Counted from the stretch's first letter, positions 20,490 to 58,376 are shown. The stretch is DNA of 58,376 bases from Myxococcales bacterium (GCA_963578775.1 CAUZEG010000004.1:1-58376); one strand, 5' to 3'. Notes: generated by a model from the letters alone, not told the origin. A program made the numbers and translations.

Positions 20490-21842
20490 CTAGAACTCAT
20501 CCTTGCAGCAGAGAACGCCTCCCTGCGAGGTGTCCGTCTTGACCACGTAGTTGGCCTCCTGGGTGGTGTTGGTTCCACAATCCCATACATCGGGATGGTC
20601 CACACCGAGAAATACATTCCAGTAGTCCAGGGGGTCACACCAGCCGCAACCACCGGAGTTGGGAGTACAACTTACCTCGGTCTCCTCCGCATTCCAGGAG
20701 CAGGCACAGTTCGTGGTGGGCTTGTTCTTCAAGGACTTACACCGGTCGTGGGAACCCAGCGTCAATGGCGCGCAGGTCTCCTGGGTCGCAGGACAGCCCA
20801 GATCACCACAGCCAAAGAGGTCATTAGAGCTGGTCGGGTCTCCAATCGTGTCCGGGGCGCAGTTGAACGCGCCTGTAGATGAAATCCGGGCCAGGAAGAA
20901 GGCCGGGCTCTGTGCACCGTCCATGATTCCAGTACAGCCCCCTTCGTTTCGGATCTGGACGTCGTCCTTTCCTAGACAGACATGCCAACCCACACCACAT
21001 AGATCTTCTACATTGCAGCCCGCACCAGCGGCATTTTCACCCGTATTTCCCGCCTGTCGGTCGCAGGCTGGTTCCGGCCCGTCAGGGCCCGTATGGTGTA
21101 TTCCTGGAACATCCCAGGCCCCGCCACAAGCGGCCAGGAAGGGGAAGCCGCCCACGTCTAGAAAGCCCTCGCGAGTCCCATCGGAACAACCGGTTGCATC
21201 GGCCTGGGGCGGCGGATCCTCGCATAGGCCATCCGGCGTACAGGACTGACCATCGTCACAGCTTCCGCAAAGATTCAGGCAGCCGTCGGTGCCGCAGTCC
21301 TTGTTTTCACAATCTGGGATACAACATAGGCCCGTGACACAGACACCGCCATCACCACAGGCTGTACTGTCGAATACAGGAACCGAGATACATCCCTCGG
21401 TAGCATCACAGACCATATTGGTGCATTCCCCACCGTCACCGCAGGTATCCACAATACATACGCCCTCACAGCCATCATCGTCGCCGCAGAGTTTCCCTTC
21501 GCAATCGGGAATACAGCCTGGATCTTCGGCCGTACCTGGATCGTCCGTCTGCCCCGGATCCTCGGTCTGACCTGGATCGTCCGTCTGGCCTGGATCTTCG
21601 GTCTGGCCTGGATCTTCGGTCTGACCTGGATCTTCGGTCTGGCCCGGGTCTTCCGTCTGGCCCGGGTCTTCCGTCTGGCCCGGATCGTCCGTCTGGCCCG
21701 GATCTTCGGTCTGGCCCGGATCGTCCGTCTGGCCCGGATCGTCCGTCTGACCCGTGTCGGTACCGGTGCCGGAATCCGACGATCCGCAACCCATGCACAA
21801 GAAAATAATAGCGCAGAAAACGACTAGAACACGTCGACCCAT
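20490..21842 (-). CDS. Cys-rich lipoprotein with a (DPGQT[DE])n linker and an unknown C-terminal domain
   Basis: ATG at 21842 is preceded by GGAGGA. The leader is MGRRVLVVFCAIIFLCMGCGSS (lipobox). After it come 12-13 hexapeptide repeats, then two copies of the CxPDCxxKxCGxDGC-type 8-Cys unit, then a ~240-aa Cys-containing domain that I cannot name. Confidence 0.75.
   Translation of the reverse strand: MGRRVLVVFCAIIFLCMGCGSSDSGTGTDTGQTDDPGQTDDPGQTEDPGQTDDPGQTEDPGQTEDPGQTEDPGQTEDPGQTEDPGQTDDPGQTEDPGQTDDPGTAEDPGCIPDCEGKLCGDDDGCEGVCIVDTCGDGGECTNMVCDATEGCISVPVFDSTACGDGGVCVTGLCCIPDCENKDCGTDGCLNLCGSCDDGQSCTPDGLCEDPPPQADATGCSDGTREGFLDVGGFPFLAACGGAWDVPGIHHTGPDGPEPACDRQAGNTGENAAGAGCNVEDLCGVGWHVCLGKDDVQIRNEGGCTGIMDGAQSPAFFLARISSTGAFNCAPDTIGDPTSSNDLFGCGDLGCPATQETCAPLTLGSHDRCKSLKNKPTTNCACSWNAEETEVSCTPNSGGCGWCDPLDYWNVFLGVDHPDVWDCGTNTTQEANYVVKTDTSQGGVLCCKDEF
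21519..21752 (-). repeat. 13 tandem 18-nt in-frame units encoding G-Q-T-[DE]-D-P
   Basis: Read directly from the sequence (ggatcttcggtctggcct / ggatcgtccgtctggccc variants on the + strand). The protein reads GQTDDP GQTDDP GQTEDP .. GTAEDP. Confidence 0.95.
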
Positions 21843-21919
21843 ACCATCCTCCAGATACAACCTTATGTATCATACGAAGGGATTAGAGTTCGGGCAAACG
21901 ATTCCCCGGTCTGAAGACA

Positions 21920-35550: not shown

Positions 35551-36294
35551 ATGACCAGAAAGATGACACTTGGATTTGGACTGATTGCCTTTTTCATCAG
35601 CGGTATGCTGGCCTGTGGCTCCGGTGACGCCGACCCTGCCCAGAACACGGGCTCGGACACCGTAAACTCAACGGACACGACCTCCGGGACAGACGAGGGT
35701 AATACCGATGAAGATGTGAATCTCAGCCTTCCGGACGAGGGGAACACCCAAACCGATCCCGGTACTGTGGGCCCAGACCCTGAAGAAGCCAAAGCACAAT
35801 GTCAGGACTATGCTCTTTGCGCTTTTGGCTGCGGCCAGAACCAGAGTTGCTTTGCACAATGTACCCAGAGCTTCCCCCTGGGCGAGCCCCTCTTCAGCGC
35901 GATTAACAACTGCATCCTTGCACAATGTGGCCAACCCCCAGGCGGAAATCAGCAGGATCCCATCTGGGCGGCATGCCTCTCTGACGTGGCGGCCGAAGGC
36001 GGTGCTTGTTTCCAGAGCCGGGTAGACTGCGGCCTTATCGGGACCGGCAGCTGTAGTGGAGTCGTTACATGTTCACAGGGCTGTACCAATCCACAAACAC
36101 AGAACGATTGCATCAATAAATGTCTCTGGGGCTCTGACGCCAATGGACAAGACCTCTACATGGCCTTCAACAACTGTGTCGCGAGTTCATGCAACGCCGA
36201 GTGCGTCGCAGCTGGAGCTTCACAGGCGGCTTGCCAGACCTGCCAGCAGGAAAAGTGTATAAATGAGATTCAAGCCTGTCAGGCTGATATGTGA
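35551..36294 (+). CDS. Lipoprotein, member 1 of the tandem family with a shared 22-Cys C-terminal module
   Basis: An AGGAG Shine-Dalgarno precedes the ATG. The leader is MTRKMTLGFGLIAFFISGMLACGSG (lipobox). An acidic T/D/G linker follows, then the Cys module at 35800-36291. A strong terminator lies downstream. Confidence 0.75.
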   Translation: MTRKMTLGFGLIAFFISGMLACGSGDADPAQNTGSDTVNSTDTTSGTDEGNTDEDVNLSLPDEGNTQTDPGTVGPDPEEAKAQCQDYALCAFGCGQNQSCFAQCTQSFPLGEPLFSAINNCILAQCGQPPGGNQQDPIWAACLSDVAAEGGACFQSRVDCGLIGTGSCSGVVTCSQGCTNPQTQNDCINKCLWGSDANGQDLYMAFNNCVASSCNAECVAAGASQAACQTCQQEKCINEIQACQADM

Positions 36295-36315
36295 TTTGTA
36301 CCATTCCGCTAGAAT

Positions 36316-36351
36316 GAAAAAAGCCGGGCGAATTCGCCCGGCTTTTTTTTG
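36316..36351 (+). terminator. Rho-independent terminator
   Basis: aaaaaagccgggcg-aatt-cgcccggctttttttt: a perfect 9-bp GC stem with a 4-nt loop and T8. The A-tract upstream makes it potentially bidirectional. Confidence 0.9.
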
Positions 36352-36422
36352 TCCCGGTGAATCGAGACAATGACTTCCATTCTAGGCTATGCTCGATACG
36401 GGCATATAAATCTGGTGGTCTT

Positions 36423-37238
36423 GTGAACTTCAATCCACGGTCCCTATTACTCCTCCTCGGGATTACAGTCCTGGGCTGTGGAGCATCGGCCGGGGCCAGC
36501 ACAGACACGGTCACGGACGCAGCTGGCGATACCTACGTTTCTAAGGACGCAGACACCACGAGCGTTCCGCCGACGGATACCAACGACTGCAATAACGGGG
36601 ATACTACCAATTGCGTAGATGCGTCCGACGCCGGGCCCGACATGGACTCGTCCGGTGGCATCGATTCGAATGTGCCGGATACAACGACCGTCGATCCGGG
36701 TAGCGACACCTCGTCTCCACCGGATACCACAGATCCTGAACTGCTCGAACGACTCTCCTGCCAACAGGCCTTTCTATGTGTCAAGGCTTGTGGCGGGGGA
36801 GAGAGCTGCCAGATCGAATGCTCTGAACAATATCCCGAAGGCGCCGCTCGACTCGATACAATGCTCCTATGCGTCATTGCGGTTTGCGGTGACACACCGG
36901 GTGAATCCGACCCTGGCTGGGCGGCCTGGATCTTTTGTACCCAGGATGCCCAGGCCCCGGGAGCCAGCTGCGCCGCCGAGACCGAACAATGTCTAGCCGG
37001 CCCAGAAGACTGTGCAAATATCGTCCATTGCTCCAATCAATGTGGCTCAAGCCAGAGCTGCCATGACCTATGCCATTGGACAGGAACCCTGTTGGCGCAA
37101 TCACTGTATCAGGCCTTTCGAGGCTGTGTGTATGCAAACTGCAGCAGCATCTGTGGGGAAGAGTTTGAGATCGATGCCTGTACCGCTTGCCAAACAGATT
37201 ATTGCGGTCCAAAGATGCAAGCCTGTCAGGACAATTGA
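36423..37238 (+). CDS. Lipoprotein, member 2 of the tandem family with a shared 22-Cys C-terminal module
   Basis: The ORF opens at GTG 36357, inside or next to the terminator. GTG 36423 gives (M)NFNPRSLLLLLGITVLGCGAS (lipobox) and is preferred. A T/D-rich linker follows, then the Cys module at 36759-37235. Confidence 0.7.
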   Translation: MNFNPRSLLLLLGITVLGCGASAGASTDTVTDAAGDTYVSKDADTTSVPPTDTNDCNNGDTTNCVDASDAGPDMDSSGGIDSNVPDTTTVDPGSDTSSPPDTTDPELLERLSCQQAFLCVKACGGGESCQIECSEQYPEGAARLDTMLLCVIAVCGDTPGESDPGWAAWIFCTQDAQAPGASCAAETEQCLAGPEDCANIVHCSNQCGSSQSCHDLCHWTGTLLAQSLYQAFRGCVYANCSSICGEEFEIDACTACQTDYCGPKMQACQDN

Positions 37239-37329
37239 ATTCTGGTCATATCTTTTTTGACAAAGTAATCCCAGAACTGAGACAATCCCCTCCTTACATT
37301 GGGTGTCGCAATTTTTAGGGAGTACAAGA

Positions 37330-40083
37330 ATGCAAAAGCTGTTCACGTCGAATATCGTTCTCGCGCTATTCGCAAGCTGTATGTTTACCTTCGCCGCGTG
37401 CGGTGGAGGTGGTGAAGAAATCGTTACGGATACAGGAACTGATGCCTGTACACCGAGTTGTGATGACAAGGACTGCGGTGACGACGGTTGCGGCAATCTT
37501 TGTGGTGAATGTGAAGATGGGCTTAGTTGCCTCGATGATTTCACCTGCGGCACAGAATGTACTCCCGACTGCACCGACAAGGAATGTGGTGATGACGGCT
37601 GTGGCGGCGATTGCGGCGCATGCCCGTCGGTCGCACCGGCTTGCGGTGAAGACTTCACCTGCCAGGTCGAATGCTCACCGAGTTGCGATGGCCGAGAATG
37701 CGGCGATGATGGCTGTGGCGGCGACTGTGGTACATGCCCGTCGGCCGCTCCCGAGTGCAGCGACGAAGGCACCTGCCAAGTTGCCTGTGCTCCGGCCTGT
37801 GAGGGCAAGGAATGCGGCGACGATGGCTGTGGTAGTACCTGCGGTGGTTGCCCGGAAGAGATTCCCATTTGTAACGAAGATGGCCTATGCATCATTGGCT
37901 GTACACCAAGTTGCGAATTAGGCGACGGTACACCCAAAGAGTGTGGCGACGATGGCTGTGAAGGCTCCTGTGGAGCGTGTCCCAATGCTGCACCCATCTG
38001 CGACGGTGGAGTCTGTATCGCGGCCTGTTCTCCTGATTGCGATGGCAAAGAATGTGGCGCTGACGGCTGCGGTGGTGACTGTGGTGACTGCCCGGGTGCG
38101 GCTCCTATCTGCGATGCGGGCGTCTGCACCGTGGACTGTACTCCCAACTGCGCTGGCATAGACTGCGGTGCAGACGGTTGTGGTGGTTCCTGTGGATCCT
38201 GTTCTGGTGAGCTGACCTGTATTGCCGGCACATGTTCGAGTGGTTCCTGTACTTCCGATTGCTCCGGTAAGGAATGCGGTTCCGATGGCTGTGATGGTTC
38301 CTGTGGTACCTGTGCTGCTGGGGAACAATGTCTGGCTGATGGCAGTTGCCTCTGCATCCCGAGCTGTACCGGCAAGGAATGTGGTGGTGATGGCTGTGGT
38401 GGTACCTGCGGCGCCTTCAACGGCAACTGCGGGGCTGGCGAAACCTGTAGTGGTGGAACTTGCGTTGCCGAATGCTCACCCAGCTGTGCTGGTAAAGAGT
38501 GCGGTAGTGACGGCTGTGGTGGTACATGTGCCCCAGGCTGTAGCGCAGGCTACAACTGCGACGCTGGTGGCCAATGTGTCATGGAATGTACGCCGGATTG
38601 TACCGGTAAGGTATGTGGTTCCGATGGCTGCAGTGGTAGCTGTGGTACGTGCGCGGCTGGCGAAAGCTGCAGTGCGGGTGCCTGCCAGTCCAGTTGTACA
38701 CCGGTATGCGATCTGGCCAATGCCCAGGACTGTGGTCAGGGTCTAATCGTACCCTGCGGAGACGAAACCGAATGTGGTACCTGTGAAGAGGGCTTCGAAT
38801 GTGACCTTGGCTTCGGCCAATGTGCAGAAGCTGCACCATGTGAGTCTCAGGAAGGAGATCTCTTCTGTATGGACCGAGACACCGGAGTCGAGCTTCAATG
38901 TGGCTGGGATCCAGTATGCGGTAATGTCTCCCCGGCATGTGGAGGTAACGAGGGTGCCTGCGAACTCGCAACTCTCGATTGTACCCCGGATGGTTGGTGC
39001 ATCGATCCCTGTCAATGCGGTGGCTTCGAAGATGGAACCCTGGACAAATGCGGTTCGATCGACGGCTGTGAAAACGACTGTGGTGGTTGCTTCACAGAGG
39101 GTCAGGGCGTGACCGGTCCAGGAACCTGGGTCTGTAACGTAAACAACCAATGTGAAGAACAATGCATCCCGGGTTGTGGGACTGTGGAACTTCCATTGAT
39201 TTGTGGTAGCGATGGCTGTGGCGGTAGCTGTGGCGACTGTGCCGGGTCAGACCTGTGCAGTGGCGATCAGACGACCTGCGAGAGCTGTGAGGATACCGTA
39301 ACACCGGCCGAAAGCTGCGAAGGAAAAGTCTGCGGCTGGGATCCCTGTGGTACGGCCTGTGGCGATAACGGCGGTCTTTGTGGTGGAACCGAAATCTGCG
39401 ACGAGAACGGTCAATGCGTACCCGGCTGTGATCCACTTGATGTCTGTCAGGAACCCCTGGCCTTCAAGTTCTGCGGAGCCGACGATTGTGGTGGGACATG
39501 TGGTACATGCGGCCCGGGCGAAGTCTGCGCTGACGATGCCCAGTCCTGTGACGATCCCACCGGTACCAAGGACGCCTGCAAAGTGGCCTATCTCTGTGTA
39601 GCCGGTTGCACGACCTTTGCCTGTATCCTGGGCTGTGCACCACCCGATGGCACACCGGGTGCCGTCGAGTACGGAGATCTTCGTACCTGTGTCGCAGCTG
39701 AGTGCGGTAATCCGCCTCCGCCAGCTTGTACCGCAGCAGCGCTCGCGCTGGATGGTGCCTGCGAAGCAGAGTCGGACGCATGCATCTCCGGTGCACAGGC
39801 CTGTGCGCCGCTTAAGACCTGCGTAGACACAAACTGTACAGCAAGTCCCAATGTAGACGTCTGTACGTCAGCGTGCCTATATAACGGTACTCTGGCGGGC
39901 CAGGCCAACTATACGCTGTACAATGAATGTTCGCAGAATCAATGCTCGGCAGACTGTCAATCCGGAAACTGCGACGCAGAATGTGCAGCAGGCTCCGAGA
40001 CTCCAGAGTGCCAGGCTTGCATTAACAACAAGTGTAAAGATTGTCTGGCAGTGCAATGTCCGGGAGCGGATAGCTGCCTATAA
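37330..40083 (+). CDS. Large lipoprotein, member 3: ~16 tandem 8-Cys repeats plus the shared C-terminal Cys module
   Basis: ATG 37330 is preceded by GGGAG. The leader is MQKLFTSNIVLALFASCMFTFAACGGG (lipobox). The repeats span 37447-39549 and the C-terminal module spans 39577-40080. A terminator follows. Confidence 0.8.
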   Translation: MQKLFTSNIVLALFASCMFTFAACGGGGEEIVTDTGTDACTPSCDDKDCGDDGCGNLCGECEDGLSCLDDFTCGTECTPDCTDKECGDDGCGGDCGACPSVAPACGEDFTCQVECSPSCDGRECGDDGCGGDCGTCPSAAPECSDEGTCQVACAPACEGKECGDDGCGSTCGGCPEEIPICNEDGLCIIGCTPSCELGDGTPKECGDDGCEGSCGACPNAAPICDGGVCIAACSPDCDGKECGADGCGGDCGDCPGAAPICDAGVCTVDCTPNCAGIDCGADGCGGSCGSCSGELTCIAGTCSSGSCTSDCSGKECGSDGCDGSCGTCAAGEQCLADGSCLCIPSCTGKECGGDGCGGTCGAFNGNCGAGETCSGGTCVAECSPSCAGKECGSDGCGGTCAPGCSAGYNCDAGGQCVMECTPDCTGKVCGSDGCSGSCGTCAAGESCSAGACQSSCTPVCDLANAQDCGQGLIVPCGDETECGTCEEGFECDLGFGQCAEAAPCESQEGDLFCMDRDTGVELQCGWDPVCGNVSPACGGNEGACELATLDCTPDGWCIDPCQCGGFEDGTLDKCGSIDGCENDCGGCFTEGQGVTGPGTWVCNVNNQCEEQCIPGCGTVELPLICGSDGCGGSCGDCAGSDLCSGDQTTCESCEDTVTPAESCEGKVCGWDPCGTACGDNGGLCGGTEICDENGQCVPGCDPLDVCQEPLAFKFCGADDCGGTCGTCGPGEVCADDAQSCDDPTGTKDACKVAYLCVAGCTTFACILGCAPPDGTPGAVEYGDLRTCVAAECGNPPPPACTAAALALDGACEAESDACISGAQACAPLKTCVDTNCTASPNVDVCTSACLYNGTLAGQANYTLYNECSQNQCSADCQSGNCDAECAAGSETPECQACINNKCKDCLAVQCPGADSCL
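37447..39549 (+). repeat. Tandem array of 36-40-codon 8-Cys units (C-x-P-x-C-x-G-K-E-C-G-x-D-G-C-G-G-x-C-G-x-C-...)
   Basis: About 11 well-conserved and about 5 degenerate units, counted by eye in the translation. The periodicity is also visible in the nucleotides. Confidence 0.85.
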
Positions 40084-40106
40084 TAATCCTGCACTGATCT
40101 TGAGTG

Positions 40107-40148
40107 AAAGAGGCCGGGCCATTACGCCCGGCCTCTTTTCATTTTGTT
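40107..40148 (+). terminator. Rho-independent terminator
   Basis: gaggccgggc-cattac-gcccggcctc followed by ttttcatttt. Confidence 0.85.
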
Positions 40149-40188
40149 GCGTCTATATTTCGTACGCCTGCACACCATAGAGATCTCC

Positions 40189-50900: not shown

Positions 50901-52907
50901 CTAATTCCGTGATAGATGGTAGGCGGATTGCCCCTCACAGGAGGGAACCGCTGTGGGATATACAGTGTCACAACCGGTTCCCTGGCACGTCGCCACATCG
51001 TTCTTCACAAAGAAGAGCGTATTCGAATCCGAGACGTTCCAATACCCCGTTCGCCGCTGCTCCGTGGATAAAACAGTACTGCCCCCGATCTCCGTAGTCG
51101 TAACAACCTCACAGACAAAATCCGTAAAGTTGGGGTTGACCCCGGCCACAAAACAACAGCTTCGTGAAATCCCATCTTCGGTCAAAGTAAAGGTTCCATT
51201 CGTATTGGTATCGACTGTCACCGAGGACAGATCCGCTCCAAAAAAGCCGCATTCGTCGTAATGGAGTTCCGCATAGGTCGTGGAATAGTCGCCCGCTGCC
51301 GGGTCGTAATTGATCGCACCGGGATAGACATTTTCATTGCTGTCGTCGCAATCGGTGTTGTCTAAGGCGAATGTAGTTCCTGCATCGCATAATTCGATAC
51401 CGATCGATTGTGAATCCCCGAAGGTGTCACCATCTGCATCGGAATAGTAGGTGGTGGTACCGGATATTGTTCCCTCGTCGTCATCATCCGCCACGCCATT
51501 GCAATTCTCGTCGATATCGCCCGCATCACAGATCTCTGCCGCCCCCGGGTTTATTTCCGGCAAAGCATCGTTGCAGTCCGTGTTGTTTCCCACCAGTCCC
51601 TCCGGTTGAAGGCAAGCTTCAACGCCGGGATCGTTCTGGTCTCCGAAGGTGTCTTCATCGTTATCCACAAAATAGGTGGTCTTACCCTCGGCCCCATCGA
51701 CGTCCAGATCATTGGCCGCCCCATCGCAGTCTTCATCGACGTCAAAAAAATCACAGACCTCAACGGCTGCCGGGTTGATATCCCCTAAGATATCGTTGCA
51801 GTCGGCATTGTTTCCCGACAGACCCGCCGGTGGATCGCAGAAATCCGAGCCTGTATCGTTGGCGTCCCCGAAGGTGTCACCATCACTATCGACATAGTAG
51901 GTGGTCTTGCCGTCGGCGCCATTCGCATCCGCGTCATCCGCCGCACCATCGCAATCCTCGTCAATATCGTCCACATCGCAGACTTCGACACCATCGGGAT
52001 TCACCGCCACTAACACATCGTCGCAGTCAGTATTATTGCTTACCAGGTCGACCGGTGGTTCACAGAGATCCACTCCGGCATCGTTGGCGTCCCCGAAGGT
52101 GTCACCGTCACCATCTACATAATAGGTGATCTTTCCATCCGCCCCATCCGTGTCGAGATCGTCTGCCGCGCCATCACAATCCTCGTCGATATCGTCCACA
52201 TCACAGGTCTCTGCACTGTCGGGATTCACTCCTGGCAATATATCGTCGCAATCGGAATTATTGGATGCTACGCCCTCCGGGGGATCGCAGAAGTCAGCGC
52301 CTACGGCCGTATCATCCCCGAAGTTGTCACCATCGCTATCGGTATAATAGGTGGCCTTACCCTCGGCTCCATCTTCGTCCAGATCATCCGCCGCACCATC
52401 ACAATCCTCGTCGATGTCATCGGCATCACAGACTTCAGTGGCCCCTGGATTCACATTCGCCAGGACATCGTCACAGTCCGTATTGTCGGTCACATAGCCT
52501 TCTGGTTGCGCACAGGCTTCTTCGGTTGTATCGGCATCGCCGTAGGTGTCGTCGTCTGCATCGGCATAATAGACGACCGCATCGTTCGCATCCTGATCCG
52601 TCGTTCCATCGCAATCGTTGTCTTTGCCGTCGCAGATCTCGTCCGCGGCCGGATGGATCGTATCGTCGCTATCATCACAGTCCACATCATCGGCATAGCC
52701 ATCATTATCGCCATCAATGGGACCGTCCGCATCCGCCGGAGCGGCATCCGTACCGATGTCATCACCACTACTGTCCGGACCGTTATTCTCACTGTCCAGA
52801 TTATGGGAACCGCAACCAACCGCCAGCGCCAGAAGAAGCACAAGACCACTCGACCCGATGCTTCGAAGGAAAGATGTACTCACCATATGCCTAATCCCTT
52901 TTTCCAT
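50901..52907 (-). CDS. Lipoprotein with six MopE-type putative metal-binding repeats and an unknown 137-aa C-terminal domain
   Basis: The leader is ..SSGLVLLLALAVGCGSH (lipobox). The repeats are of the form DCDD-x6-PGA-x-E-x-CD-x-xD-x-DCDG-x2-D plus YY.D.DGD.FGD, e.g. DCDDSDDTIHPAADEICDGKDNDCDGTTD. Confidence 0.8.
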   Translation of the reverse strand: MEKGIRHMVSTSFLRSIGSSGLVLLLALAVGCGSHNLDSENNGPDSSGDDIGTDAAPADADGPIDGDNDGYADDVDCDDSDDTIHPAADEICDGKDNDCDGTTDQDANDAVVYYADADDDTYGDADTTEEACAQPEGYVTDNTDCDDVLANVNPGATEVCDADDIDEDCDGAADDLDEDGAEGKATYYTDSDGDNFGDDTAVGADFCDPPEGVASNNSDCDDILPGVNPDSAETCDVDDIDEDCDGAADDLDTDGADGKITYYVDGDGDTFGDANDAGVDLCEPPVDLVSNNTDCDDVLVAVNPDGVEVCDVDDIDEDCDGAADDADANGADGKTTYYVDSDGDTFGDANDTGSDFCDPPAGLSGNNADCNDILGDINPAAVEVCDFFDVDEDCDGAANDLDVDGAEGKTTYFVDNDEDTFGDQNDPGVEACLQPEGLVGNNTDCNDALPEINPGAAEICDAGDIDENCNGVADDDDEGTISGTTTYYSDADGDTFGDSQSIGIELCDAGTTFALDNTDCDDSNENVYPGAINYDPAAGDYSTTYAELHYDECGFFGADLSSVTVDTNTNGTFTLTEDGISRSCCFVAGVNPNFTDFVCEVVTTTEIGGSTVLSTEQRRTGYWNVSDSNTLFFVKNDVATCQGTGCDTVYPTAVPSCEGQSAYHLSRN
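51315..52715 (-). repeat. Six tandem ~75-codon MopE-like repeat units
   Basis: Units were aligned by eye in the translation (..EVCDVDDIDEDCDGAADD.D.DGA.GK.TYYVD.DGDTFGD......C.PP......NN.DC.D.L...NP..). Confidence 0.85.
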
Positions 52908-53044: not shown

Positions 53045-55381
53045 TTATGGATCACATTTGGGATCGAAGGACGGCCTACAGAGCTTTATACCCGCTCCAC
53101 CCATGGCACAACACCCCCAGACCTCACCACCGGGAAAGAGGTCGTGGCAATCAAACATGCTCTCGCATTCGTGGGTGCAGTAGGAGATATCTGCAATCGT
53201 ACTCGACCCACACCATTGGGCATCGGGCATATGGTCATCACATAAGTCGGGCTCAATCGAACCGCTTGCGTCGGTGCACTCACTCAAGCTGATCTGAGCG
53301 ACTGCAGGGCGGCAATAGCCAAAGCCCGCCGCTGGAATCATACTACATTGCCCATTGGTAAAGAGATCATCGCAATCGGCGTCAACAGAACAACTCCGAG
53401 TACAATAATCAAAATCATCGCTCGTGGGGCTCAGACATGTCGGCGCCACATCTTCGTCCGGGCAATCGACCGACGGATCGACTCCATCGTAGCATGACAC
53501 TCCCGTTGGCGGAGCCTCCCAGATGAGCTTCTCCACGCCATCACAATTCCAGGTTACCGGATAGCCGTCTCCAGGGAGCGTGATGGGATATTTCTGCCAA
53601 TACTTGGCCCGATATTCGTCCTTCCACTGGGCAAGTTGATCGTCTTCGTCAAGATGACCAATGAAATCATGAAGACGCATAACTACGATCTCCCGGCACC
53701 AGTTGCAGAAGTTGGTTTGCCGAAGATTCGTGCCCGGATTACCCGTACATGGATGGGGGTTTTCATGGGTACCGTTCATCAAACATTGGTGTTCGGGGCG
53801 GAATGCGCCCTCCCAACAGGTATAGGCCCCCTCGAAAGAGCCGATAACCTGCGAATGGGGGTTGATCCCCGCTCCGTAGAGCAGATGCTTCCACGGTACC
53901 TCGTCCGCCTCACTCGCATAACTGTAGTTATTGATTGTACGAAGGTCCCAGATGGTATTGTTGAACCCATTGAACTTACTGGCCGCGGTGCAATCCTTAT
54001 AGTCGTCTCCACGATACTCATCACGTAAATGCGCGAAGGCATGCCCAAACTCATGTATATGGCCATTGGCAATAGCGACACGCATCTTCCTTTCACCATC
54101 CGCCGAGGTAACCCCGCGAGCCCAACCCGAATAACCATCACAACTCTCACTGGGATCATCCCCGTCGGTGCAATTGGCAGCTCTCACAAGAATTACCCCC
54201 ACCACCTGCTTCATGAGTTTCGGATATTTCGACGACGAGGCCGGATATTTATGCGTGTCGTTATAGGAAATGTTCTCAATTGCCTCCATTACACCTCCCT
54301 CGAAGAAGCTCTCCTGGAGACTGCCACTGCTCAGCATTGAGATAGACCCACCACTAAGGTTCAGGCCGAAATAGGTCTGGAAATTTACATCCGAAGAGAT
54401 GTGACTCTCCGACGCCAGAGGTACAATCCAGATATTGAAAGCGTTCTGGAATGTTGCAAAGGGCTCTCGATTCAGAAACCGCTCCTTCCATAACTCCGCG
54501 TCATCGGCGAACTCATCGAGCTCGGAAGCCAGATATCCCTCGGACATCACCACCACATCGATCTTGCCACTATCGCAGCTATTACCTTTCTTCACGTTGG
54601 TCGTTGGCCCCATCAGGCCTCCGACTGGAGGCACCATGCCGTTGGGAACAAAGGGAATCGTGTACTTCACATTGGTGATCACACCACTGCCCTCAAATAT
54701 AAGCTTCGCATTCCCCGGATCTCCTGGGTGGGTTTTACAGTCATCCAACAGCTCGCAACCTTCGTATGGATCCCCACCGTAACCGGCATCACAAATACAA
54801 ACGGACGAAAAGAAATCGCAGTGGCTGTGATCACCACAGGGGCTCTCAGGAACCGGTTGGCCCGGAGCAAGGAGCGAAACACAACTTTCGAGACAACCTG
54901 TGTCCGGATCTCCGACATATCCCGGAGCACAGACACAGCCATCCGGTGTACATAACGCGTTTTCCCCACACGCCAGCAAAGAACATAGCTCCGGATCAAT
55001 CGTATCGGCATCCTGCGACACATCTTCCGTCGGGGCCACATCTTCGACCGGGGCCACATCTTCGACCGGGGCCACATCTTCGACCGGGGCCACATCTTCG
55101 ACCGGGGCCACATCTTCAACCGGGGCCACATCTTCGCCCGGGGCCACATCTTCGCCCGGGGCCACATCTTCGCCCGGGGCCACATCGTCGCCCGGGGCCA
55201 CATCTTCGCCCGGGGCCACATCGTCGCCCGGGGCCACATCGTCGCCCGGCTGTACATCGGCCGGAGTCATATCACTGGCAGCATCCGCTACACTTCCATC
55301 ATCACCACCAGTAACGCTCCCTCCACTACAACTCGTACTCAATAATGTTGTGCAAAGGAAAACTGGCACTAACCAACGCAT
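53045..55381 (-). CDS. M64-like (IgA-peptidase family) zinc metallopeptidase lipoprotein with a (DVAP[GV][DE])n linker and Cys-rich flanks
   Basis: ATG 55381 gives MRWLVPVFLCTTLLSTSCSGGS (lipobox). After it come 13-14 hexapeptide repeats and EGF-like Cys modules. The catalytic core reads KIDVVVMSEGY..EPF..FNIWIV...SES.. and HEFGHAFAHLRDEY (HExxH plus DEY). The two C-terminal modules are of the type YC-x2-C-x4-DC. Confidence 0.78.
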   Translation of the reverse strand: MRWLVPVFLCTTLLSTSCSGGSVTGGDDGSVADAASDMTPADVQPGDDVAPGDDVAPGEDVAPGDDVAPGEDVAPGEDVAPGEDVAPVEDVAPVEDVAPVEDVAPVEDVAPVEDVAPTEDVSQDADTIDPELCSLLACGENALCTPDGCVCAPGYVGDPDTGCLESCVSLLAPGQPVPESPCGDHSHCDFFSSVCICDAGYGGDPYEGCELLDDCKTHPGDPGNAKLIFEGSGVITNVKYTIPFVPNGMVPPVGGLMGPTTNVKKGNSCDSGKIDVVVMSEGYLASELDEFADDAELWKERFLNREPFATFQNAFNIWIVPLASESHISSDVNFQTYFGLNLSGGSISMLSSGSLQESFFEGGVMEAIENISYNDTHKYPASSSKYPKLMKQVVGVILVRAANCTDGDDPSESCDGYSGWARGVTSADGERKMRVAIANGHIHEFGHAFAHLRDEYRGDDYKDCTAASKFNGFNNTIWDLRTINNYSYASEADEVPWKHLLYGAGINPHSQVIGSFEGAYTCWEGAFRPEHQCLMNGTHENPHPCTGNPGTNLRQTNFCNWCREIVVMRLHDFIGHLDEDDQLAQWKDEYRAKYWQKYPITLPGDGYPVTWNCDGVEKLIWEAPPTGVSCYDGVDPSVDCPDEDVAPTCLSPTSDDFDYCTRSCSVDADCDDLFTNGQCSMIPAAGFGYCRPAVAQISLSECTDASGSIEPDLCDDHMPDAQWCGSSTIADISYCTHECESMFDCHDLFPGGEVWGCCAMGGAGIKLCRPSFDPKCDP
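55025..55258 (-). repeat. 13 tandem 18-nt in-frame units encoding D-V-A-P-[GVT]-[DE]
   Basis: Read directly from the sequence (ggggccacatcttcgacc / ggggccacatcttcgccc / ggggccacatcgtcgccc on the + strand). Confidence 0.95.
55314..55363 (-). repeat. Copy 1 of a 50-nt shared lipoprotein-leader segment
   Basis: acgctccctccactacaactcgtactcaataatgttgtgcaaaggaaaac is identical at 48/50 positions to 56042-56091. Confidence 0.95.
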
Positions 55382-55386
55382 TTGTT

Positions 55387-55428
55387 TTCTCACTTCTCTA
55401 TGAATCACATTTTGGGATCCGAGACCGA
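55387..55428 (-). pseudogene. Relic of a gene 3' end (..SDPKM* from ..FDPKCDP*) plus downstream flank, homologous to 53034-53074
   Basis: ttctcacttctctatgaatcacattttgggatccgagaccga aligns with ttctctcttccttatggatcacatttgggatcgaaggacgg at about 33 of 41 positions, with one 1-nt indel. Confidence 0.6.
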
Positions 55429-55452
55429 CAAACGAACGGTCCGTTATTCGGT

Positions 55453-56124
55453 TCAATTAGGAACGGGGAAAATTTGGTCGATCTGTATAACTTCACACAT
55501 TCCGTGCTGGCAGCGGAGCGCAGCGGCCACCCAGATACTGTTCTCCTCCAACGTTTCCTTGGTAATAATCCAATTTAGTAATACAGGGCCCAGAAAAATC
55601 TCCATATCGGGTAAAACCTCTATCGCACCGGCTTCGTCCTTATAGTAATGAACCAATAGCAAGTACTGACCATCAATCCCATAAAGAGTGCCACTCTCCG
55701 TGCCGGCGTTCTCTCCTTCCTGCAATACCGGGTTGTCCGTCTCGTCTCCGACGACTCCCCAGTCCAGATCGCTAGTGCCCGAGTCATTGGCCATCTTACA
55801 ATTGTCATAAAAGCAGTCTTCGGTCGGATTACCAAACAGGTCTAAGCCCATTTCAACCGAAGTACTGGGATCTGGCAGCCGAATAATATGAATATCCAGA
55901 TCCGCATCGGGTTCATCCCAACCTAATTGAATAACTATTTTGGGGAATGGCGGTTCCGATCCGGAATCTACACTAATTTCCGTCAGGTCTTCCGCCTGCA
56001 GCACATCAGCCGCAGGGGTCGTATCGTCTGCGCTGTCGGGCACGCTCCCGCCACTACAACTCGCACTCAATAATGTTGTGCAAAGGAAAACGGTATAAAC
56101 GATTACTTGTAACAGCCGACGCAT
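55453..56124 (-). CDS. Hypothetical lipoprotein (223 aa), possibly a YfaP/DUF2135-like beta domain
   Basis: The leader is MRRLLQVIVYTVFLCTTLLSASCSGGS (lipobox). The block IQLGWDEPDADLDIHII ... DLDWG ... GQYLLLVHYY recalls the W..DLDLH signature of DUF2135. That recognition comes from memory only. Confidence 0.6.
   Translation of the reverse strand: MRRLLQVIVYTVFLCTTLLSASCSGGSVPDSADDTTPAADVLQAEDLTEISVDSGSEPPFPKIVIQLGWDEPDADLDIHIIRLPDPSTSVEMGLDLFGNPTEDCFYDNCKMANDSGTSDLDWGVVGDETDNPVLQEGENAGTESGTLYGIDGQYLLLVHYYKDEAGAIEVLPDMEIFLGPVLLNWIITKETLEENSIWVAAALRCQHGMCEVIQIDQIFPVPN
56042..56091 (-). repeat. Copy 2 of a 50-nt shared lipoprotein-leader segment
   Basis: acgctcccgccactacaactcgcactcaataatgttgtgcaaaggaaaac, compared by eye base by base with 55314-55363. 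Confidence 0.95.
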
Positions 56125-56202: not shown

Positions 56203-58376
56203 TCACCAGGGCTCACATCGGGACGGCTGTGCAAAGACGCCGAAGTCCGTGCAGTAGCCCAGGCTGGTATCGCTATAGCCATCGTAGGGATCGCAAGGTT
56301 CACCTTCCTCGGCCTGGCCTGGGAGGCCATCGACAGAACAGGCCTTTATGCTCGGAAGAAGACAGGCTCCTTCACGACAGGCCGCCATACCGTAGGGTTC
56401 ACAGTCCGCGTCGATCGTGCAATTCGCAGTTCGACAAGCCGCCGGATCCTCGGGGCTCGGTGCGGCAGCAGAGCCATTGGGTAGGCCATCGTCCAGAAGA
56501 TCATTAAGTAGCCCCAACCCGCGCAGTTCTAGCCCCTGGCAAACGCTGGAGCCGATAGTACAGGTATCGGCTGGTACAGCGGTCGATGAATCATCGATCG
56601 AATACACATAGTCCAGTGCACCCCCAGCATTGCTGTTGAATTCGGCCAGATCATCCACAACAGCGATCTCTGTAATCGCGTAGAAGTCCGCTAAAGCCAT
56701 ATCCGCATTGATGAAGGCCACGGCAACATGCCGGCCTCCTGTCAGGTCCGTTGCATCAAAGAGAAAACTGTCGAAATTTGTCCCGCCGCCAACCGTCGTG
56801 TTGAGAAGAAGGAAAGCATTTGCATACGCATTTCCAGGGCCCGGATTGTAGAAGGCGAGCCCAAAGTCCGCGATGAGGAGGTACTCACGGCTGTCGTATA
56901 TCGAGCCATCGATCGAAGCGGCCTGAATCGTCGTAGTACCAGCAAGATCGAAGGACCCATTAAAGTCGATCAGCCCAACGTTATCGAGAATTTCTGCTTT
57001 TTTCGCCACGCTGATGCCATTGACGTCCACTATGTACACATAGTTCCCGACCGGAGGTGGAGGCGGACCCCCCTGGTAGTAGACAAGCGCATTGGCTCCA
57101 GAGGCATCGTGGCAGGATTCGAAGCAGGCCGTCACCCACTCGGGTAAGCCCGGCAAAAGGTACGCTTTCACATCGGCACAATATCCCGCTTCTCCGGTTG
57201 GGCCCGTACATGCATCTCCCGGCCCCCCATAACCGCCCGCAGCCGGGTTATAACAGAGATCGCCGAATTCACATTCGCCGCTGGCGAGGTTGCATTGCCA
57301 TGTATCTCCGGAACAATCCGCGTTTGCCGTACATTTCTGGTCGCAAACAGCGGCCGGTGCATATACCCCGACGTAGCCAGGAGAGAGAGCCTGGCATGCG
57401 CTGAGATCACCCTGTGGACAGCTGGACGCGTCCGGATGGGTACAGCCAGGTAAACAAACGGAGACCGTGCTATCGGCAGCAGCCAACACGCAATATCCGG
57501 CCAGGTCGTTCGCCGTACAGGTGGTTCCTTCCGGATAGAAGGCCGTCGGTTCCCCGGTCGCGGGATCGACCGCCATAACACAGGCCGCGGAGTCGGGAAT
57601 CGTACAAACTCCCGTATCACAGCCCAGACTTGAGACGTCCACGCAATCTGCGTCCACATCACAGCCGGAAGAGCCGCTCACACAGGCCGCCGCATCATCC
57701 GACCAGGCCCCAGCCGCACAATCTTTCATCAATACACCCGCATCCTCGAACCCACATGCGGTGCTACTGGGCTCGCGGCTTCCATTCACGCATATATCCG
57801 TACCCGTGCAGGTTTCGTTGTCGACCCAGGCTCCACCAGTGCAGTCCTGTATAAGGACGCCTTCGTCATTCAGACCACAGACAGTGGCCCCTTCCTGCGC
57901 TTCACCGTTCACGCACACATCGATGCCCGTGCAATTGGGCGCTGCTGGGGGGTTTCCACCACCACAGGTACAACAAACCATGGTGGCATCTACGCCATCC
58001 ACTGCGTAAGTAGAAGCGGTGGCGCAATTGTCTGGATCTGCGTACCACGAACCACTGCAATCATCTCCAAAGGAATCTTCCCAGACATCATCGTCAACGC
58101 ATTCGATCACGTCATCAACCCAGCCGCCGTCTTCGCAGTTCTGCATCACAGTGCCCTCATCGTTGAGACCACAGATCGTCGGGCCCACCTGCGTGGTTTC
58201 GTTTACGCAAATATCCGTACCCGTACAATTGGGTTGTGGATCGCCCAGAGTCCCCCCTCCGCAGACGCAACAAACGTCGGTCGCAGCCACACCACTCTCG
58301 TCGGCCCATATATCGGCGCTGGAACACCAGGACGGAGTCGCAGTGTACTCGTCGCAACCATCTCCATATAAGTCGA
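56203..58376 (-). CDS. Very large secreted Cys-rich modular protein, C-terminal >=724 codons; the gene continues beyond the right edge of the window
   Basis: The track starts this ORF at GTG 58290. The same frame stays open to 58376 (..DLYGDGCDEYTATPSWCSSADIWADESGVAATDVCCVCGGG) and repeats the downstream module (DSFGDDCSGSWYADPDNC..ATMVCCTCGGG), so the true start lies outside the window. Confidence 0.75.
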   Translation of the reverse strand, partial: DLYGDGCDEYTATPSWCSSADIWADESGVAATDVCCVCGGGTLGDPQPNCTGTDICVNETTQVGPTICGLNDEGTVMQNCEDGGWVDDVIECVDDDVWEDSFGDDCSGSWYADPDNCATASTYAVDGVDATMVCCTCGGGNPPAAPNCTGIDVCVNGEAQEGATVCGLNDEGVLIQDCTGGAWVDNETCTGTDICVNGSREPSSTACGFEDAGVLMKDCAAGAWSDDAAACVSGSSGCDVDADCVDVSSLGCDTGVCTIPDSAACVMAVDPATGEPTAFYPEGTTCTANDLAGYCVLAAADSTVSVCLPGCTHPDASSCPQGDLSACQALSPGYVGVYAPAAVCDQKCTANADCSGDTWQCNLASGECEFGDLCYNPAAGGYGGPGDACTGPTGEAGYCADVKAYLLPGLPEWVTACFESCHDASGANALVYYQGGPPPPPVGNYVYIVDVNGISVAKKAEILDNVGLIDFNGSFDLAGTTTIQAASIDGSIYDSREYLLIADFGLAFYNPGPGNAYANAFLLLNTTVGGGTNFDSFLFDATDLTGGRHVAVAFINADMALADFYAITEIAVVDDLAEFNSNAGGALDYVYSIDDSSTAVPADTCTIGSSVCQGLELRGLGLLNDLLDDGLPNGSAAAPSPEDPAACRTANCTIDADCEPYGMAACREGACLLPSIKACSVDGLPGQAEEGEPCDPYDGYSDTSLGYCTDFGVFAQPSRCEPW

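What the first reader, a model, noticed from the sequence alone, without database searches (positions are those of the whole stretch)
35551..40083. Tandem trio of lipoprotein genes sharing an unrecognised ~160-aa, 22-cysteine, internally duplicated C-terminal module
Three consecutive same-strand genes (35551-36294, 36423-37238, 37330-40083) each begin with a lipobox leader (..MLAC/GSG, ..VLGC/GAS, ..FAAC/GGG). Each then has a different N-terminal part. The first two carry acidic T/D/G-rich linkers and the third carries ~16 Cys repeats.

All three end in the same ~160-aa module (nt 35800-36291, 36759-37235, 39577-40080). Aligning the three by eye gives 22 shared Cys columns. The module shows an internal duplication:
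- The pattern is C-x5-C-x3/4-C-x4-8-C-x3-C, then ~15-20 residues, then C-x4-C, and it occurs twice. In gene 1 this reads CQDYALCAFGCGQNQSCFAQC...NNCILAQC and CSGVVTCSQGCTNPQTQNDCINKC...NNCVASSC.
- It is closed by a C-x2-C-x4-C-x6-C tail (CQTCQQEKCINEIQAC, CTACQTDYCGPKMQAC).

Non-Cys positions are poorly conserved. The copies therefore look like old paralogues held together by a disulfide scaffold. I cannot assign the module to any named family. Strong terminators after genes 1 and 3 suggest independent expression. A conserved display domain on variable tethers looks like a surface-exposed family (adhesion, prey or matrix contact, or metal binding), but the function is open.
Basis: partly seen in the sequence, partly recalled or inferred. 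Interest (0 to 1): 0.72.

Follow-up and report, generated by a model that had tools for sequence, protein, structure and literature searches.

The report
Disulfide-stapled helical domain on tethered lipoproteins
Three neighbouring lipoprotein genes each end in two copies of a previously undescribed ~79-residue, cysteine-stapled helical unit; the unit defines a large, unannotated protein family centred on Myxococcota, its predicted fold matches no solved structure, and its function is still unknown.

Summary
Three + strand genes (35551-36294, 36423-37238, 37330-40083) encode lipobox proteins. Their C-terminal 159-168 aa modules carry 22, 22 and 26 Cys in matching columns (BLASTP g1-g2 E=5e-24, g1-g3 E=3e-7).

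Each module is two tandem copies of a ~79-aa unit with 10 or 12 Cys. An exhaustive profile search found 144 clusters with 1-8 units each. They are mostly lipoproteins built as an acidic disordered tether followed by a unit array that ends the protein. A DNA pattern scan found at least 116 HMM-verified loci, nearly all in Myxococcota or "Deltaproteobacteria" MAGs.

No Pfam, NCBIfam or PDB sequence match covers the unit. AlphaFold2 gives an all-helical model (pLDDT 96.3) with no Foldseek neighbour in PDB or BFVD. Even Cys counts (309 of 345 units) and pairwise co-loss or co-gain of Cys point to nested-hairpin disulfides, not metal thiolates.

A Red Sea MAG keeps the same trio in synteny with every Cys conserved and dN/dS of 0.08-0.24. 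No gene neighbour is conserved across the family. A few members attach the unit to secreted hydrolases.

Most likely this is a rigid, acidic, non-catalytic binding head on a membrane tether. Function is inferred, not shown.

The parts
35551..36294 (+). g1: 247-aa lipoprotein. Leader with lipobox GMLAC (aa 1-22), acidic T/D/G-rich tether (aa 23-83; 15 D+E, 1 K+R), then two Cys units.
   Evidence: Orthologue P0003 is 62% identical with 23 of 23 Cys conserved and dN/dS 0.08.
35788..36033 (+). g1 unit A (aa 80-161), 10 Cys
   Evidence: unit HMM E=1.9e-9
36037..36288 (+). g1 unit B (aa 163-246), 12 Cys
   Evidence: unit HMM E=6.4e-17
36316..36351 (+). Intrinsic terminator after g1: GC-rich hairpin followed by T8.
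   Evidence: read directly; -25.3 kcal/mol, z = -6.5
36423..37238 (+). g2: 271-aa lipoprotein. Leader with lipobox VLGC (aa 1-19), acidic tether (aa 20-112) containing one extra Cys pair, then two Cys units.
   Evidence: The orthologue in L002 is 63% identical with 25 of 25 Cys conserved.
36750..36998 (+). g2 unit A (aa 110-192)
   Evidence: unit HMM E=7e-9
36996..37235 (+). g2 unit B (aa 192-271)
   Evidence: unit HMM E=4.2e-15
37257..37286 (+). Promoter-like site TTGACA-18-GACAAT upstream of g3. No terminator lies between g2 and g3.
   Evidence: This is a consensus match only.
37330..40083 (+). g3: 917-aa lipoprotein. Leader with lipobox FAAC (aa 1-24), Cys-repeat region, then two Cys units. 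The mature protein has 162 Cys.
   Evidence: The orthologue in L002 is 85% identical with 164 of 164 Cys conserved and dN/dS 0.08.
37447..39564 (+). g3 repeat region: 12 canonical ~37-aa repeats (C-x3-C-x4-CGxDGCGxxCGxC...) plus degenerate copies. Proposed to act as a stalk.
   Evidence: No Pfam or NCBIfam hit. The AlphaFold2 model is poor (pLDDT 50), so the stalk role is an inference.
39559..39792 (+). g3 unit A (aa 744-821)
   Evidence: unit HMM E=3.9e-8
39787..40062 (+). g3 unit B (aa 820-911), with 4 extra Cys
   Evidence: unit HMM E=3.6e-5; Cys count
40102..40150 (+). Intrinsic terminator after g3: 14-bp stem followed by a T-rich tail.
   Evidence: -30.1 kcal/mol, z = -7.9

Best explanation
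**What it is.** g1, g2 and g3 are three old paralogues of a large, unannotated lipoprotein family centred on Myxococcota. Each protein has three parts:
- a Sec/lipoprotein leader ending in a lipobox Cys;
- a spacer, which is a 60-90-aa acidic low-complexity tether in g1 and g2, and a ~700-aa array of CGxDGC Cys repeats in g3;
- a head that ends the protein, made of two tandem ~79-aa all-helical units.

**How the unit is held together.** Each unit carries 10 or 12 Cys that are oxidised after export into 5 or 6 intra-unit disulfides. Two nested helical-hairpin staples are inferred: unit columns 12-27 with 16-23, and 50-64 with the optional 54-61.

**Inferred mechanism.**
1. The protein is exported, lipidated and oxidatively folded.
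2. The result is a rigid, protease-resistant, strongly acidic head (median net charge about -8 per unit) held away from the membrane.
3. The head acts as a non-catalytic binding or recognition module. The disulfide scaffold stays fixed while the surface diverges.

**Shown here:** the genes, the leaders, the unit and family, the helical prediction, the Cys parity and co-variation, purifying selection, and synteny.

**Inferred only:** lipidation, which membrane and which face, the disulfide map, and the binding function.
For: **Genes and leaders:**

**Real genes under purifying selection.**
- The syntenic trio in Red Sea MAG PBVT01000081 keeps all 23, 25 and 164 Cys.
- dN/dS is 0.08-0.24, though dS is saturated.

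**Family size and architecture.**
- The exhaustive profile search found 144 representative clusters at E<=1e-3.
- The unit HMM finds 386 units in 146 proteins, 1-8 per protein, and hits each window module twice.
- 116 of 120 pattern-selected loci in GTDB genomes are HMM-positive. Titles are mostly Myxococcales, Myxococcota, Bradymonadia or 'Deltaproteobacteria' MAGs, with several loci per genome.
- Lipoboxes occur in 95 of 145 representatives and at least 84 of 124 ORFs; many of the rest are truncated or missed by the regex.
- 122 of 146 proteins end within 10 aa of the last unit.
- The tether has a median length of 69 aa and is rich in G, D, A, P, T and S. 93% of units have a net negative charge.

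**Fold.** AlphaFold2 on a 34-sequence alignment gives pLDDT 96.3, pTM 0.83 and 11 helices.

**Disulfides.**
- 84 of 96 mature lipoproteins (p=2e-14) and 309 of 345 units (p=3e-55) have even Cys counts.
- Columns 54 and 61 are gained together (121 both, 119 neither).
- Columns 16+23, 12+27 and 50+64 are lost together.

**Accessory, non-catalytic role.**
- The unit is appended C-terminally to a penicillin amidase (P0006, from the same MAG as the g1 orthologue) and to a matrixin-like protease (P0106).
- It also occurs with EF-hands, Lcl_C and MopE.
- No neighbour is conserved: 128 flanking ORFs gave 103 Pfam families, none seen more than twice.

**Fast surface divergence.** g1 and g2 are 62-63% identical to their orthologues, while eight of nine flanking genes are 75-92% identical and the MFS transporter 65%.
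Against: - There is no direct evidence for any ligand, for surface exposure or for expression.
- The binding role rests on architecture and analogy only.
- I could not inspect the AlphaFold2 coordinates, so the disulfide map rests on a few co-loss events (2-13 per pair) and on parity.
- dS is saturated, so the dN/dS values are rough.
- Strong acidity and occasional EF-hand or MopE partners would also fit cation binding.
- Fast divergence of g1 and g2 could reflect relaxed constraint rather than selection on a binding surface.
- The g3 repeat region could not be modelled (pLDDT 50), so 'stalk' is an analogy.
Confidence: 0.55

Rival explanations
1. **Metal-thiolate binding or storage domain.** The Cys would stay reduced and line the helices, sequestering Cu(I), Zn or Cd as in metallothioneins or Csp copper-storage proteins.
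For: - Cys make up about 13% of the module, with C-x3-C motifs on helices.
- One family member also has MopE Cu-binding motifs, and a MopE-repeat protein lies in the same window.
Against: - Even Cys counts in 309 of 345 units, and paired loss or gain of Cys, are expected for disulfides and not for thiolate clusters.
- The leaders are Sec/lipoprotein type, which deliver unfolded chains to an oxidising compartment.
- No His or Met is conserved: 0.39 His per unit, and none in the g1 or g3 modules.
- There is no Pfam hit to Csp/DUF326 or MopE.
- Foldseek found no Csp-like four-helix bundle.
Confidence: 0.1
2. **Polyanionic surface coat or cation buffer.** The units would have no specific ligand. 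Acidic tethers plus acidic, rigid heads would form a charged, protease-resistant brush on the envelope, or bind Ca2+/Mg2+ non-specifically.
For: - Median net charge is -8 per unit, and 93% of units are negative.
- Tethers are 14% Asp.
- EF-hand fusions occur in 2 representatives.
- Units occur in arrays of 1-8 and several genes per genome.
- No partner gene is conserved.
Against: - A conserved, precisely folded scaffold with conserved G-x3-A-Q and aromatic positions is more than a charge carrier needs.
- Attachment to hydrolases fits a targeting role better.
Confidence: 0.15
3. **Membrane-tethered inhibitor.** The disulfide-rich heads would bind and block hydrolases (the organism's own or foreign proteases or lysozyme-like enzymes) to protect the envelope of a predatory bacterium. 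Lipoprotein lysozyme inhibitors and small disulfide-rich protease inhibitors work this way.
For: - The domains are compact, disulfide-rich and protease-resistant.
- The unit co-occurs in one polypeptide with a matrixin-like protease and with an amidase.
- The window's genome encodes several Cys-rich secreted peptidases.
- g1 and g2 diverge fast.
Against: - There is no similarity to any known inhibitor family by sequence or fold.
- The family genes have no conserved protease neighbour.
- This reading is entirely by analogy.
Confidence: 0.1
4. **Artefact.** The ORFs would be chance reading frames, or the similarity would be a by-product of Cys-rich composition.
For: None beyond the low-complexity look of the linkers.
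Against: - The trio is syntenic and orthologous, with every Cys conserved and dN/dS well below 1.
- Composition-adjusted BLASTP gives E=5e-24.
- The HMM ignores other Cys-rich ORFs and all 120 Cys-only pattern matches.
- The AlphaFold2 model has pLDDT 96.
Confidence: 0.01

Closest known systems
TraA-type myxobacterial surface receptors (PA14 head, TIGR04201 Cys-rich repeat stalk, MYXO-CTERM anchor; PMC3325183)
   Same: - Same phylum.
- Same design logic: a membrane anchor, then a Cys-rich tandem-repeat region proposed to be a rigid stalk, then a distal head.
- Secreted Cys are presumed to be oxidised.
   Different: - The polarity is reversed: here the lipid anchor is N-terminal and the head C-terminal.
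- The head is the new helical unit, not PA14.
- The g3 repeats do not match TIGR04201 or any NCBIfam or Pfam model.
- g1 and g2 use a disordered tether instead of a stalk.
Twin CX3C / CX9C helical-hairpin proteins (small Tim proteins, CHCH/Cox17 family)
   Same: Two antiparallel helices are stapled by nested disulfides from C-x3-C ... C-x3-C motifs. The unit's columns 12/16 and 23/27 have this spacing and are lost in the nested pairs 16+23 and 12+27.
   Different: - Those are eukaryotic proteins of the mitochondrial intermembrane space with only 2 disulfides.
- There is no sequence or Foldseek match.
- Here there are 5-6 disulfides in about 5 helices, and the units are tandem on bacterial lipoproteins.
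Helicobacter cysteine-rich proteins (Hcp; Sel1-like repeats)
   Same: They are secreted bacterial proteins built from tandem helical repeats, each stapled by a disulfide.
   Different: - Hcp repeats are ~36 aa with one disulfide.
- They match Pfam Sel1, and no such hit is found here.
- The fold and Cys density differ.
Csp copper-storage proteins (Cys-lined four-helix bundles)
   Same: They are helical, with more than 10% Cys and C-x3-C periodicity.
   Different: - In Csp the Cys are free thiolates binding Cu(I).
- Here parity and co-variation indicate disulfides.
- There is no Pfam or fold match.
Fungal CFEM domains (8-Cys helical domain on GPI-anchored, Ser/Thr-rich tethered wall proteins)
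   Same: A small helical, disulfide-rich head sits on a low-complexity tether attached to a lipid anchor, and can occur in tandem. This comparison is recalled from my own knowledge of the family.
   Different: - CFEM is eukaryotic and has a different Cys pattern.
- There is no Pfam CFEM hit and no Foldseek match to CFEM structures.

Membership tests
Bacterial lipoproteins (Lgt/Lsp/Lnt substrates) | N-terminal leader with a basic n-region, a hydrophobic h-region and a lipobox [LVIMF..][..][AGS]C | tested here: met
   The three leaders end in GMLAC, VLGC and FAAC. The same feature is found in 95 of 145 family representatives and at least 84 of 124 GTDB ORFs.
Bacterial lipoproteins (Lgt/Lsp/Lnt substrates) | Actual acylation of the Cys, and localisation (inner or outer membrane, surface) | not testable with these tools
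   This needs globomycin sensitivity, palmitate labelling, fractionation or protease shaving.
TIGR04201 / TIGR02232 myxobacterial Cys-rich repeats (TraA stalk type) | Match to the NCBIfam/TIGRFAM repeat HMM | tested here: not met
   The NCBIfam scan of g1-g3 at E<=1 returned no such family. The same was true for 57 homologues.
Any Pfam-A / NCBIfam domain covering the Cys unit | HMM match over the unit | tested here: not met
   g1-g3 gave 0 Pfam families at E<=1. In 142 homologues only accessory domains outside the unit were hit.
Csp / DUF326 copper-storage bundle or MopE Cu-binding motif | Pfam match, a four-helix bundle fold, and free Cys thiolates | tested here: not met
   There is no Pfam hit and no Foldseek hit. 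Cys parity and paired loss favour disulfides. Thiol state itself was not measured.
Twin CX3C / CHCH helical hairpin | C-x3-C on each of two antiparallel helices forming nested disulfides | tested here: inconclusive
   The motif spacing is present and the nested pairs 12+27 and 16+23 are co-lost. However, I could not inspect model coordinates, and there is no sequence or fold match to Tim or Cox17 entries. It works alike at motif level but is not a member.
Sel1-like Hcp repeats, CFEM, saposin-like and other known Cys-rich helical domains | Pfam match or structural similarity to solved members | tested here: not met
   There are no Pfam hits. PDB profile searches found nothing significant: the best was E=0.27 with the 3-sequence profile, and nothing at E<=10 with the 34-sequence profile. 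The best Foldseek PDB hit has E=6.2 and TM<=0.26.
New '79-aa 10/12-Cys helical unit' family defined here | Cys at unit columns 6, 12, 16, 23, 27, 45, 69 and 76 (98-100%), usually also 50 and 64, optionally 54 and 61; a G-x3-A-Q motif between columns 27 and 45 | tested here: met
   All six units of g1-g3 match the unit HMM with E between 4e-5 and 6e-17.

The most novel reading that the evidence does not exclude
The unit is a new protein fold specific to Myxococcota and their predatory relatives. It forms the recognition head of a multigene family of surface-tethered lipoproteins. The disulfide scaffold is frozen while the exposed surface diversifies quickly: g1 and g2 are 62-63% identical to their orthologues against 75-92% for eight of nine flanking genes. 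On this reading the family acts in cell-cell, prey or matrix recognition and could be swapped between kin by outer-membrane exchange.
Probability: 0.2. Interest if true: 0.75.

Novelty: new variant of a known kind. Interest (0 to 1): 0.5.

Why it matters
- **Unusual disulfide density.** Five to six disulfides per 79 residues is rare in bacteria. This unit appears in hundreds of predicted envelope proteins of Myxococcota and related predatory bacteria, often several per genome, yet it has no entry in Pfam-A or NCBIfam and no relative in the PDB.
- **A family to annotate.** Defining it gives a usable HMM and consensus for many 'hypothetical lipoproteins'. It also gives structural biologists a confidently predicted all-helical fold with no solved neighbour.
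- **A candidate recognition module.** It points experimenters to a recurrent 'anchor, tether, head' design that may underlie adhesion or recognition in social and predatory bacteria.
- **A possible scaffold.** If the head is a binding module, it would also be a compact, hyper-stable scaffold of possible use in biotechnology.
- **Limits.** The finding does not by itself resolve a long-standing question, and the function remains open.

Tried and rejected
- **Word-indexed homology search.** The search with the 3-sequence and the 34-sequence profiles returned only 3 proteins each, so the index does not reach this divergent family. The exhaustive representative search was needed.
- **The search for related loci with the 34-sequence alignment.** It failed because no stretch was conserved enough. 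With the 4-sequence alignment it found only the Red Sea MAG and one other MAG.
- **Cys-only DNA pattern scan.** Adding the G and A-Q codons fixed this, giving 116 of 120.
- **hhalign of the two halves with only 4 sequences.** It was only marginal (E=1e-4, 56% probability), so the duplication rests mainly on the family-wide HMM.
- **AlphaFold2 of three g3 stalk repeats.** With a 10-row pseudo-alignment it gave pLDDT 50. It is unusable and I did not fold-search it.
- **Foldseek against PDB and BFVD.** Nothing with E better than 4.7.
- **Gene-neighbourhood analysis of 128 flanking ORFs.** No recurrent partner was found.
- **Literature searches.** Searches for Cys-rich or disulfide-rich Myxococcota lipoproteins found nothing on this module.
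- **Weak NCBIfam 'invert_tail' hit in g1.** The hit (E=0.34) lies on the signal peptide and I dismissed it.
- **Not run.** I did not use the third homologous-protein search, and I did not run PADLOC or PHROGs scans, because nothing pointed to defence or phage functions.

Full report
**1. Observation**

The three + strand ORFs are present as described. g1 is 35551-36294 (247 aa), g2 is 36423-37238 (271 aa, GTG start) and g3 is 37330-40083 (917 aa). Each begins with a basic n-region, a hydrophobic core and a lipobox..GMLAC|GSG..VLGC|GAS and ..FAAC|GGG. Each is preceded by a Shine-Dalgarno-like motif.

The C-terminal modules are 164, 159 and 168 aa and hold 22, 22 and 26 Cys with nearly identical spacing. 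MAFFT gives 21 invariant Cys columns, and the last Cys is mis-gapped in g3. The similarity is well beyond composition: composition-adjusted BLASTP gives g1-g2 E=5e-24 over the whole module and g1-g3 E=3e-7.

Strong intrinsic terminators follow g1 (-25.3 kcal/mol, z = -6.5, then U8) and g3 (-30.1 kcal/mol, z = -7.9). None follows g2; the g2-g3 spacer has only a promoter-like TTGACA-18-GACAAT. So g1 is its own transcription unit, and g2 and g3 may be co-transcribed.

**2. Real, conserved genes**

A marine MAG ('Myxococcales bacterium RS415', Tara Red Sea, PBVT01000081) carries the same trio. It lies between the same MFS-transporter gene, which adjoins Rieske and cytochrome b genes, and the same SIR2 and aconitase genes.
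- Orthologue identities are 62% for g1, 63% for g2 and 85% for g3.
- All 23, 25 and 164 Cys are conserved.
- dN/dS is 0.08-0.24, but dS is saturated, so this is only a qualitative sign of purifying selection.
- Eight of nine flanking genes are 75-92% identical and the MFS transporter is 65%. g1 and g2 therefore evolve markedly faster than most neighbours while keeping every Cys.

**3. The module is two copies of a ~79-aa unit from a large family**

No Pfam-A or NCBIfam model hits g1-g3 even at E<=1. The one weak NCBIfam hit lies on the signal peptide. PDB sequence searches with a 3-sequence and a 34-sequence profile found nothing significant. The word-indexed protein search found only the window's own proteins and the g1 orthologue.

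The exhaustive profile search of 1.84 billion representatives found 144 clusters at E<=1e-3 and 22 at E<=1e-10. Many matched only profile positions ~75-160 and had 2-7 matched stretches.

I seeded an HMM from the second half of the module and iterated it on these proteins. It converged on a 79-position unit with 386 instances in 146 proteins, 1-8 per protein. It hits each window module twice, with E between 4e-5 and 6e-17. With only four sequences, hhalign of half A against half B was marginal (E=1e-4). The duplication therefore rests mainly on the family-wide model.

The HMM is specific. It ignores the g3 stalk, which is far richer in Cys, and the other Cys-rich ORFs of the window. It also ignores all 120 chance matches of a Cys-only DNA pattern.

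Unit Cys occupancy:
- Columns 6, 12, 16, 23, 27, 45, 69 and 76 are Cys in 98-100% of units.
- Column 50 is Cys in 86%, column 64 in 79%, column 61 in 59% and column 54 in 42%.
- The main non-Cys conservation is a G-x3-A-Q motif and hydrophobic or aromatic positions.

**4. Distribution and architecture**

Of these, 116 are HMM-positive. Of the 80 titles shown:
- about 49 name Myxococcota lineages (Myxococcales, Myxococcota, Nannocystaceae, Anaeromyxobacteraceae, Archangiaceae, Bradymonadia, Lujinxingia);
- 13 say 'Deltaproteobacteria';
- the rest are generic, plus two binned MAGs labelled 'Enterobacteriaceae' whose labels I did not verify.

Nearly all are MAGs. Several genomes contribute 3-5 loci even though the pattern catches only about a quarter of family proteins. 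Eight loci carry two adjacent family genes, so tandem paralogues like this trio recur.

Lipoboxes are found by a crude regex in 95 of 145 representatives and 84 of 124 GTDB ORFs. Most of the others are truncated or have visible lipoboxes that the regex missed.

The typical architecture is the one seen in g1 and g2: a lipobox, an acidic low-complexity tether, and a unit array that ends the protein.
- The tether has a median length of 69 aa and is rich in G, D, A, P, T and S.
- 122 of 146 proteins stop within 10 aa of the last unit.
- Units have a median net charge of -8.

In 142 homologues the only Pfam domains lie outside the unit: EF-hands (2), penicillin amidase (P0006, from the same Red Sea MAG), a matrixin/astacin-like protease (P0106), Lcl_C, MopE and a PT disordered repeat (one each). 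Sources call these proteins 'hypothetical'. Flanking genes are unrelated housekeeping genes: 128 neighbours gave 103 Pfam families, none seen more than twice.

**5. Structure and Cys chemistry**

AlphaFold2 on a 34-sequence alignment gives a very confident all-helical model of the g1 module: mean pLDDT 96.3, pTM 0.83, 11 helices, and all five models at 95.9 or above. Foldseek finds no neighbour in the PDB (best E=6.2, TM<=0.26) or in BFVD (best E=4.7).

Parity argues that all Cys are paired. Counts are even in 84 of 96 mature lipoproteins (p=2e-14); several 'odd' cases, including g3, are regex mis-cuts. Counts are even in 309 of 345 units, which have 10 or 12 Cys (p=3e-55).

Co-variation suggests part of the disulfide map:
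- columns 54 and 61 appear together (121 both, 119 neither);
- columns 16+23 are lost together 4 times;
- columns 12+27 are lost together twice;
- columns 50+64 are lost together 13 times.

This implies two nested hairpin staples, 12-27 with 16-23 and 50-64 with 54-61. The pairing of columns 6, 45, 69 and 76 is unresolved. I could not read the model coordinates, so this map is an inference.

**6. g3 N-terminal region**

This region holds twelve canonical repeats of ~37 aa (C-x3-C-x4-CGxDGCGxxCGxC...) plus degenerate copies. The same repeat occurs next to the unit in 10 of the 145 family proteins from the protein searches, for example P0006, P0008 and P0115. It matches no Pfam or NCBIfam model, including the TraA-type repeat models. 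A three-repeat AlphaFold2 model was poor (pLDDT 50). Its role as a stalk is an analogy with TraA, whose Cys-rich repeats were proposed to be a rigid stalk presenting a binding head (PMC3325183).

**7. Interpretation**

The best-supported reading is a family of exported, lipid-anchored proteins. Their only folded part in g1 and g2 is a rigid, acidic, disulfide-stapled helical head at the far end of a tether. The head is sometimes borrowed as a C-terminal accessory by secreted hydrolases. That pattern is typical of non-catalytic binding or targeting modules. The frozen scaffold with a fast-diverging surface in g1 and g2 fits an exposed interaction surface. This functional step is inference, and I put it at roughly 0.45-0.55.

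Rivals:
- Metal-thiolate binding is disfavoured by parity, paired Cys loss, the Sec-type leaders and the lack of conserved His or Met.
- A non-specific polyanionic coat or cation buffer.
- A tethered hydrolase inhibitor.
- An artefact, which is excluded.

**8. Novelty and score**

The kind of thing (Cys-rich repeat domains on bacterial envelope proteins) is known. This unit, its fold prediction and its family are not described in the libraries or papers I could search. I rate it a new variant of a known kind, with interest 0.5. It is a solid, sizeable new domain family with an apparently new fold, but it has no demonstrated function and no direct bearing on a long-standing question.

Noticed in passing
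window 2182-4116 (+): A 644-aa matrixin-like (Peptidase_M10) protein with 58 Cys. It has a weak NCBIfam hit to the myxosortase-dependent metalloprotease family MXAN_2677/2678. Its C-terminal tail (GGC...LLLAGLLGLAYHRRRSEI) scores just under the MYXO-CTERM cut-off (18.7 against 20 bits). This supports a Myxococcota origin for the window.
   Followed up: partly
window 20490-21860 (-): Another lipoprotein (..FLCMGC|GSS). It has about 14 tandem GQTEDP/GQTDDP repeats, two CGxDGC-like Cys repeats (one fits the strict motif) resembling those of g3, and an unassigned Cys-rich C-terminal domain. No Pfam or NCBIfam hit.
   Followed up: partly
window 50901-52907 (-), 53045-55456 (-), 56203-58290 (-): A run of further Cys-rich predicted secreted proteins: one with several MopE Cu-binding motifs, an M64 peptidase with 43 Cys, and a 694-aa protein with 56 Cys and no family match.
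   Followed up: partly
window 35551-37238 compared with L002 10001-11688: g1 and g2 are only 62-63% identical to their orthologues in the Red Sea MAG. g3 is 85% identical, eight of nine flanking genes are 75-92% and the MFS transporter is 65%. Every Cys is nevertheless retained. This could be diversifying selection or relaxed constraint; I did not resolve which.
   Followed up: partly
L001 11892-13897 and L003 7534-9539: In two other assemblies that encode the identical g1 orthologue, the g3 orthologue is split into four or five short gene calls. It is intact (917 aa) in L002. This probably reflects assembly or frameshift errors in the repeat region.
   Followed up: no
P0006 (1438 aa, same Red Sea MAG as the g1 orthologue): A lipoprotein penicillin amidase (PvdQ-like acylase) carries one CGxDGC repeat plus the two-unit module at its C-terminus. 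The related genome therefore has at least four module-bearing genes.
   Followed up: partly
P0004, P0007, P0009, P0011, P0013: A subgroup of family members has a further C-terminal extension without Cys (about 10-40 aa) after the last unit; in several of them it ends in Phe or Asn. It may be a separate sorting or anchoring signal.
   Followed up: no
L149, L150 (GTDB MAGs titled 'uncultured Enterobacteriaceae bacterium'): Two HMM-positive family loci sit in binned MAGs labelled Enterobacteriaceae. This is most likely a binning or labelling error, but I did not check it.
   Followed up: no
L006 5017-7371: Next to a single-unit family member in MAG RA.bin151 lies a trypsin-like protease. It carries many CGNG..E.CDDGN..GDGC repeats, which I recognised by eye as the classical myxobacterial Cys-rich repeat, and it ends in GGCSLILL. 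This shows that different Cys-rich repeat types coexist in these genomes.
   Followed up: no
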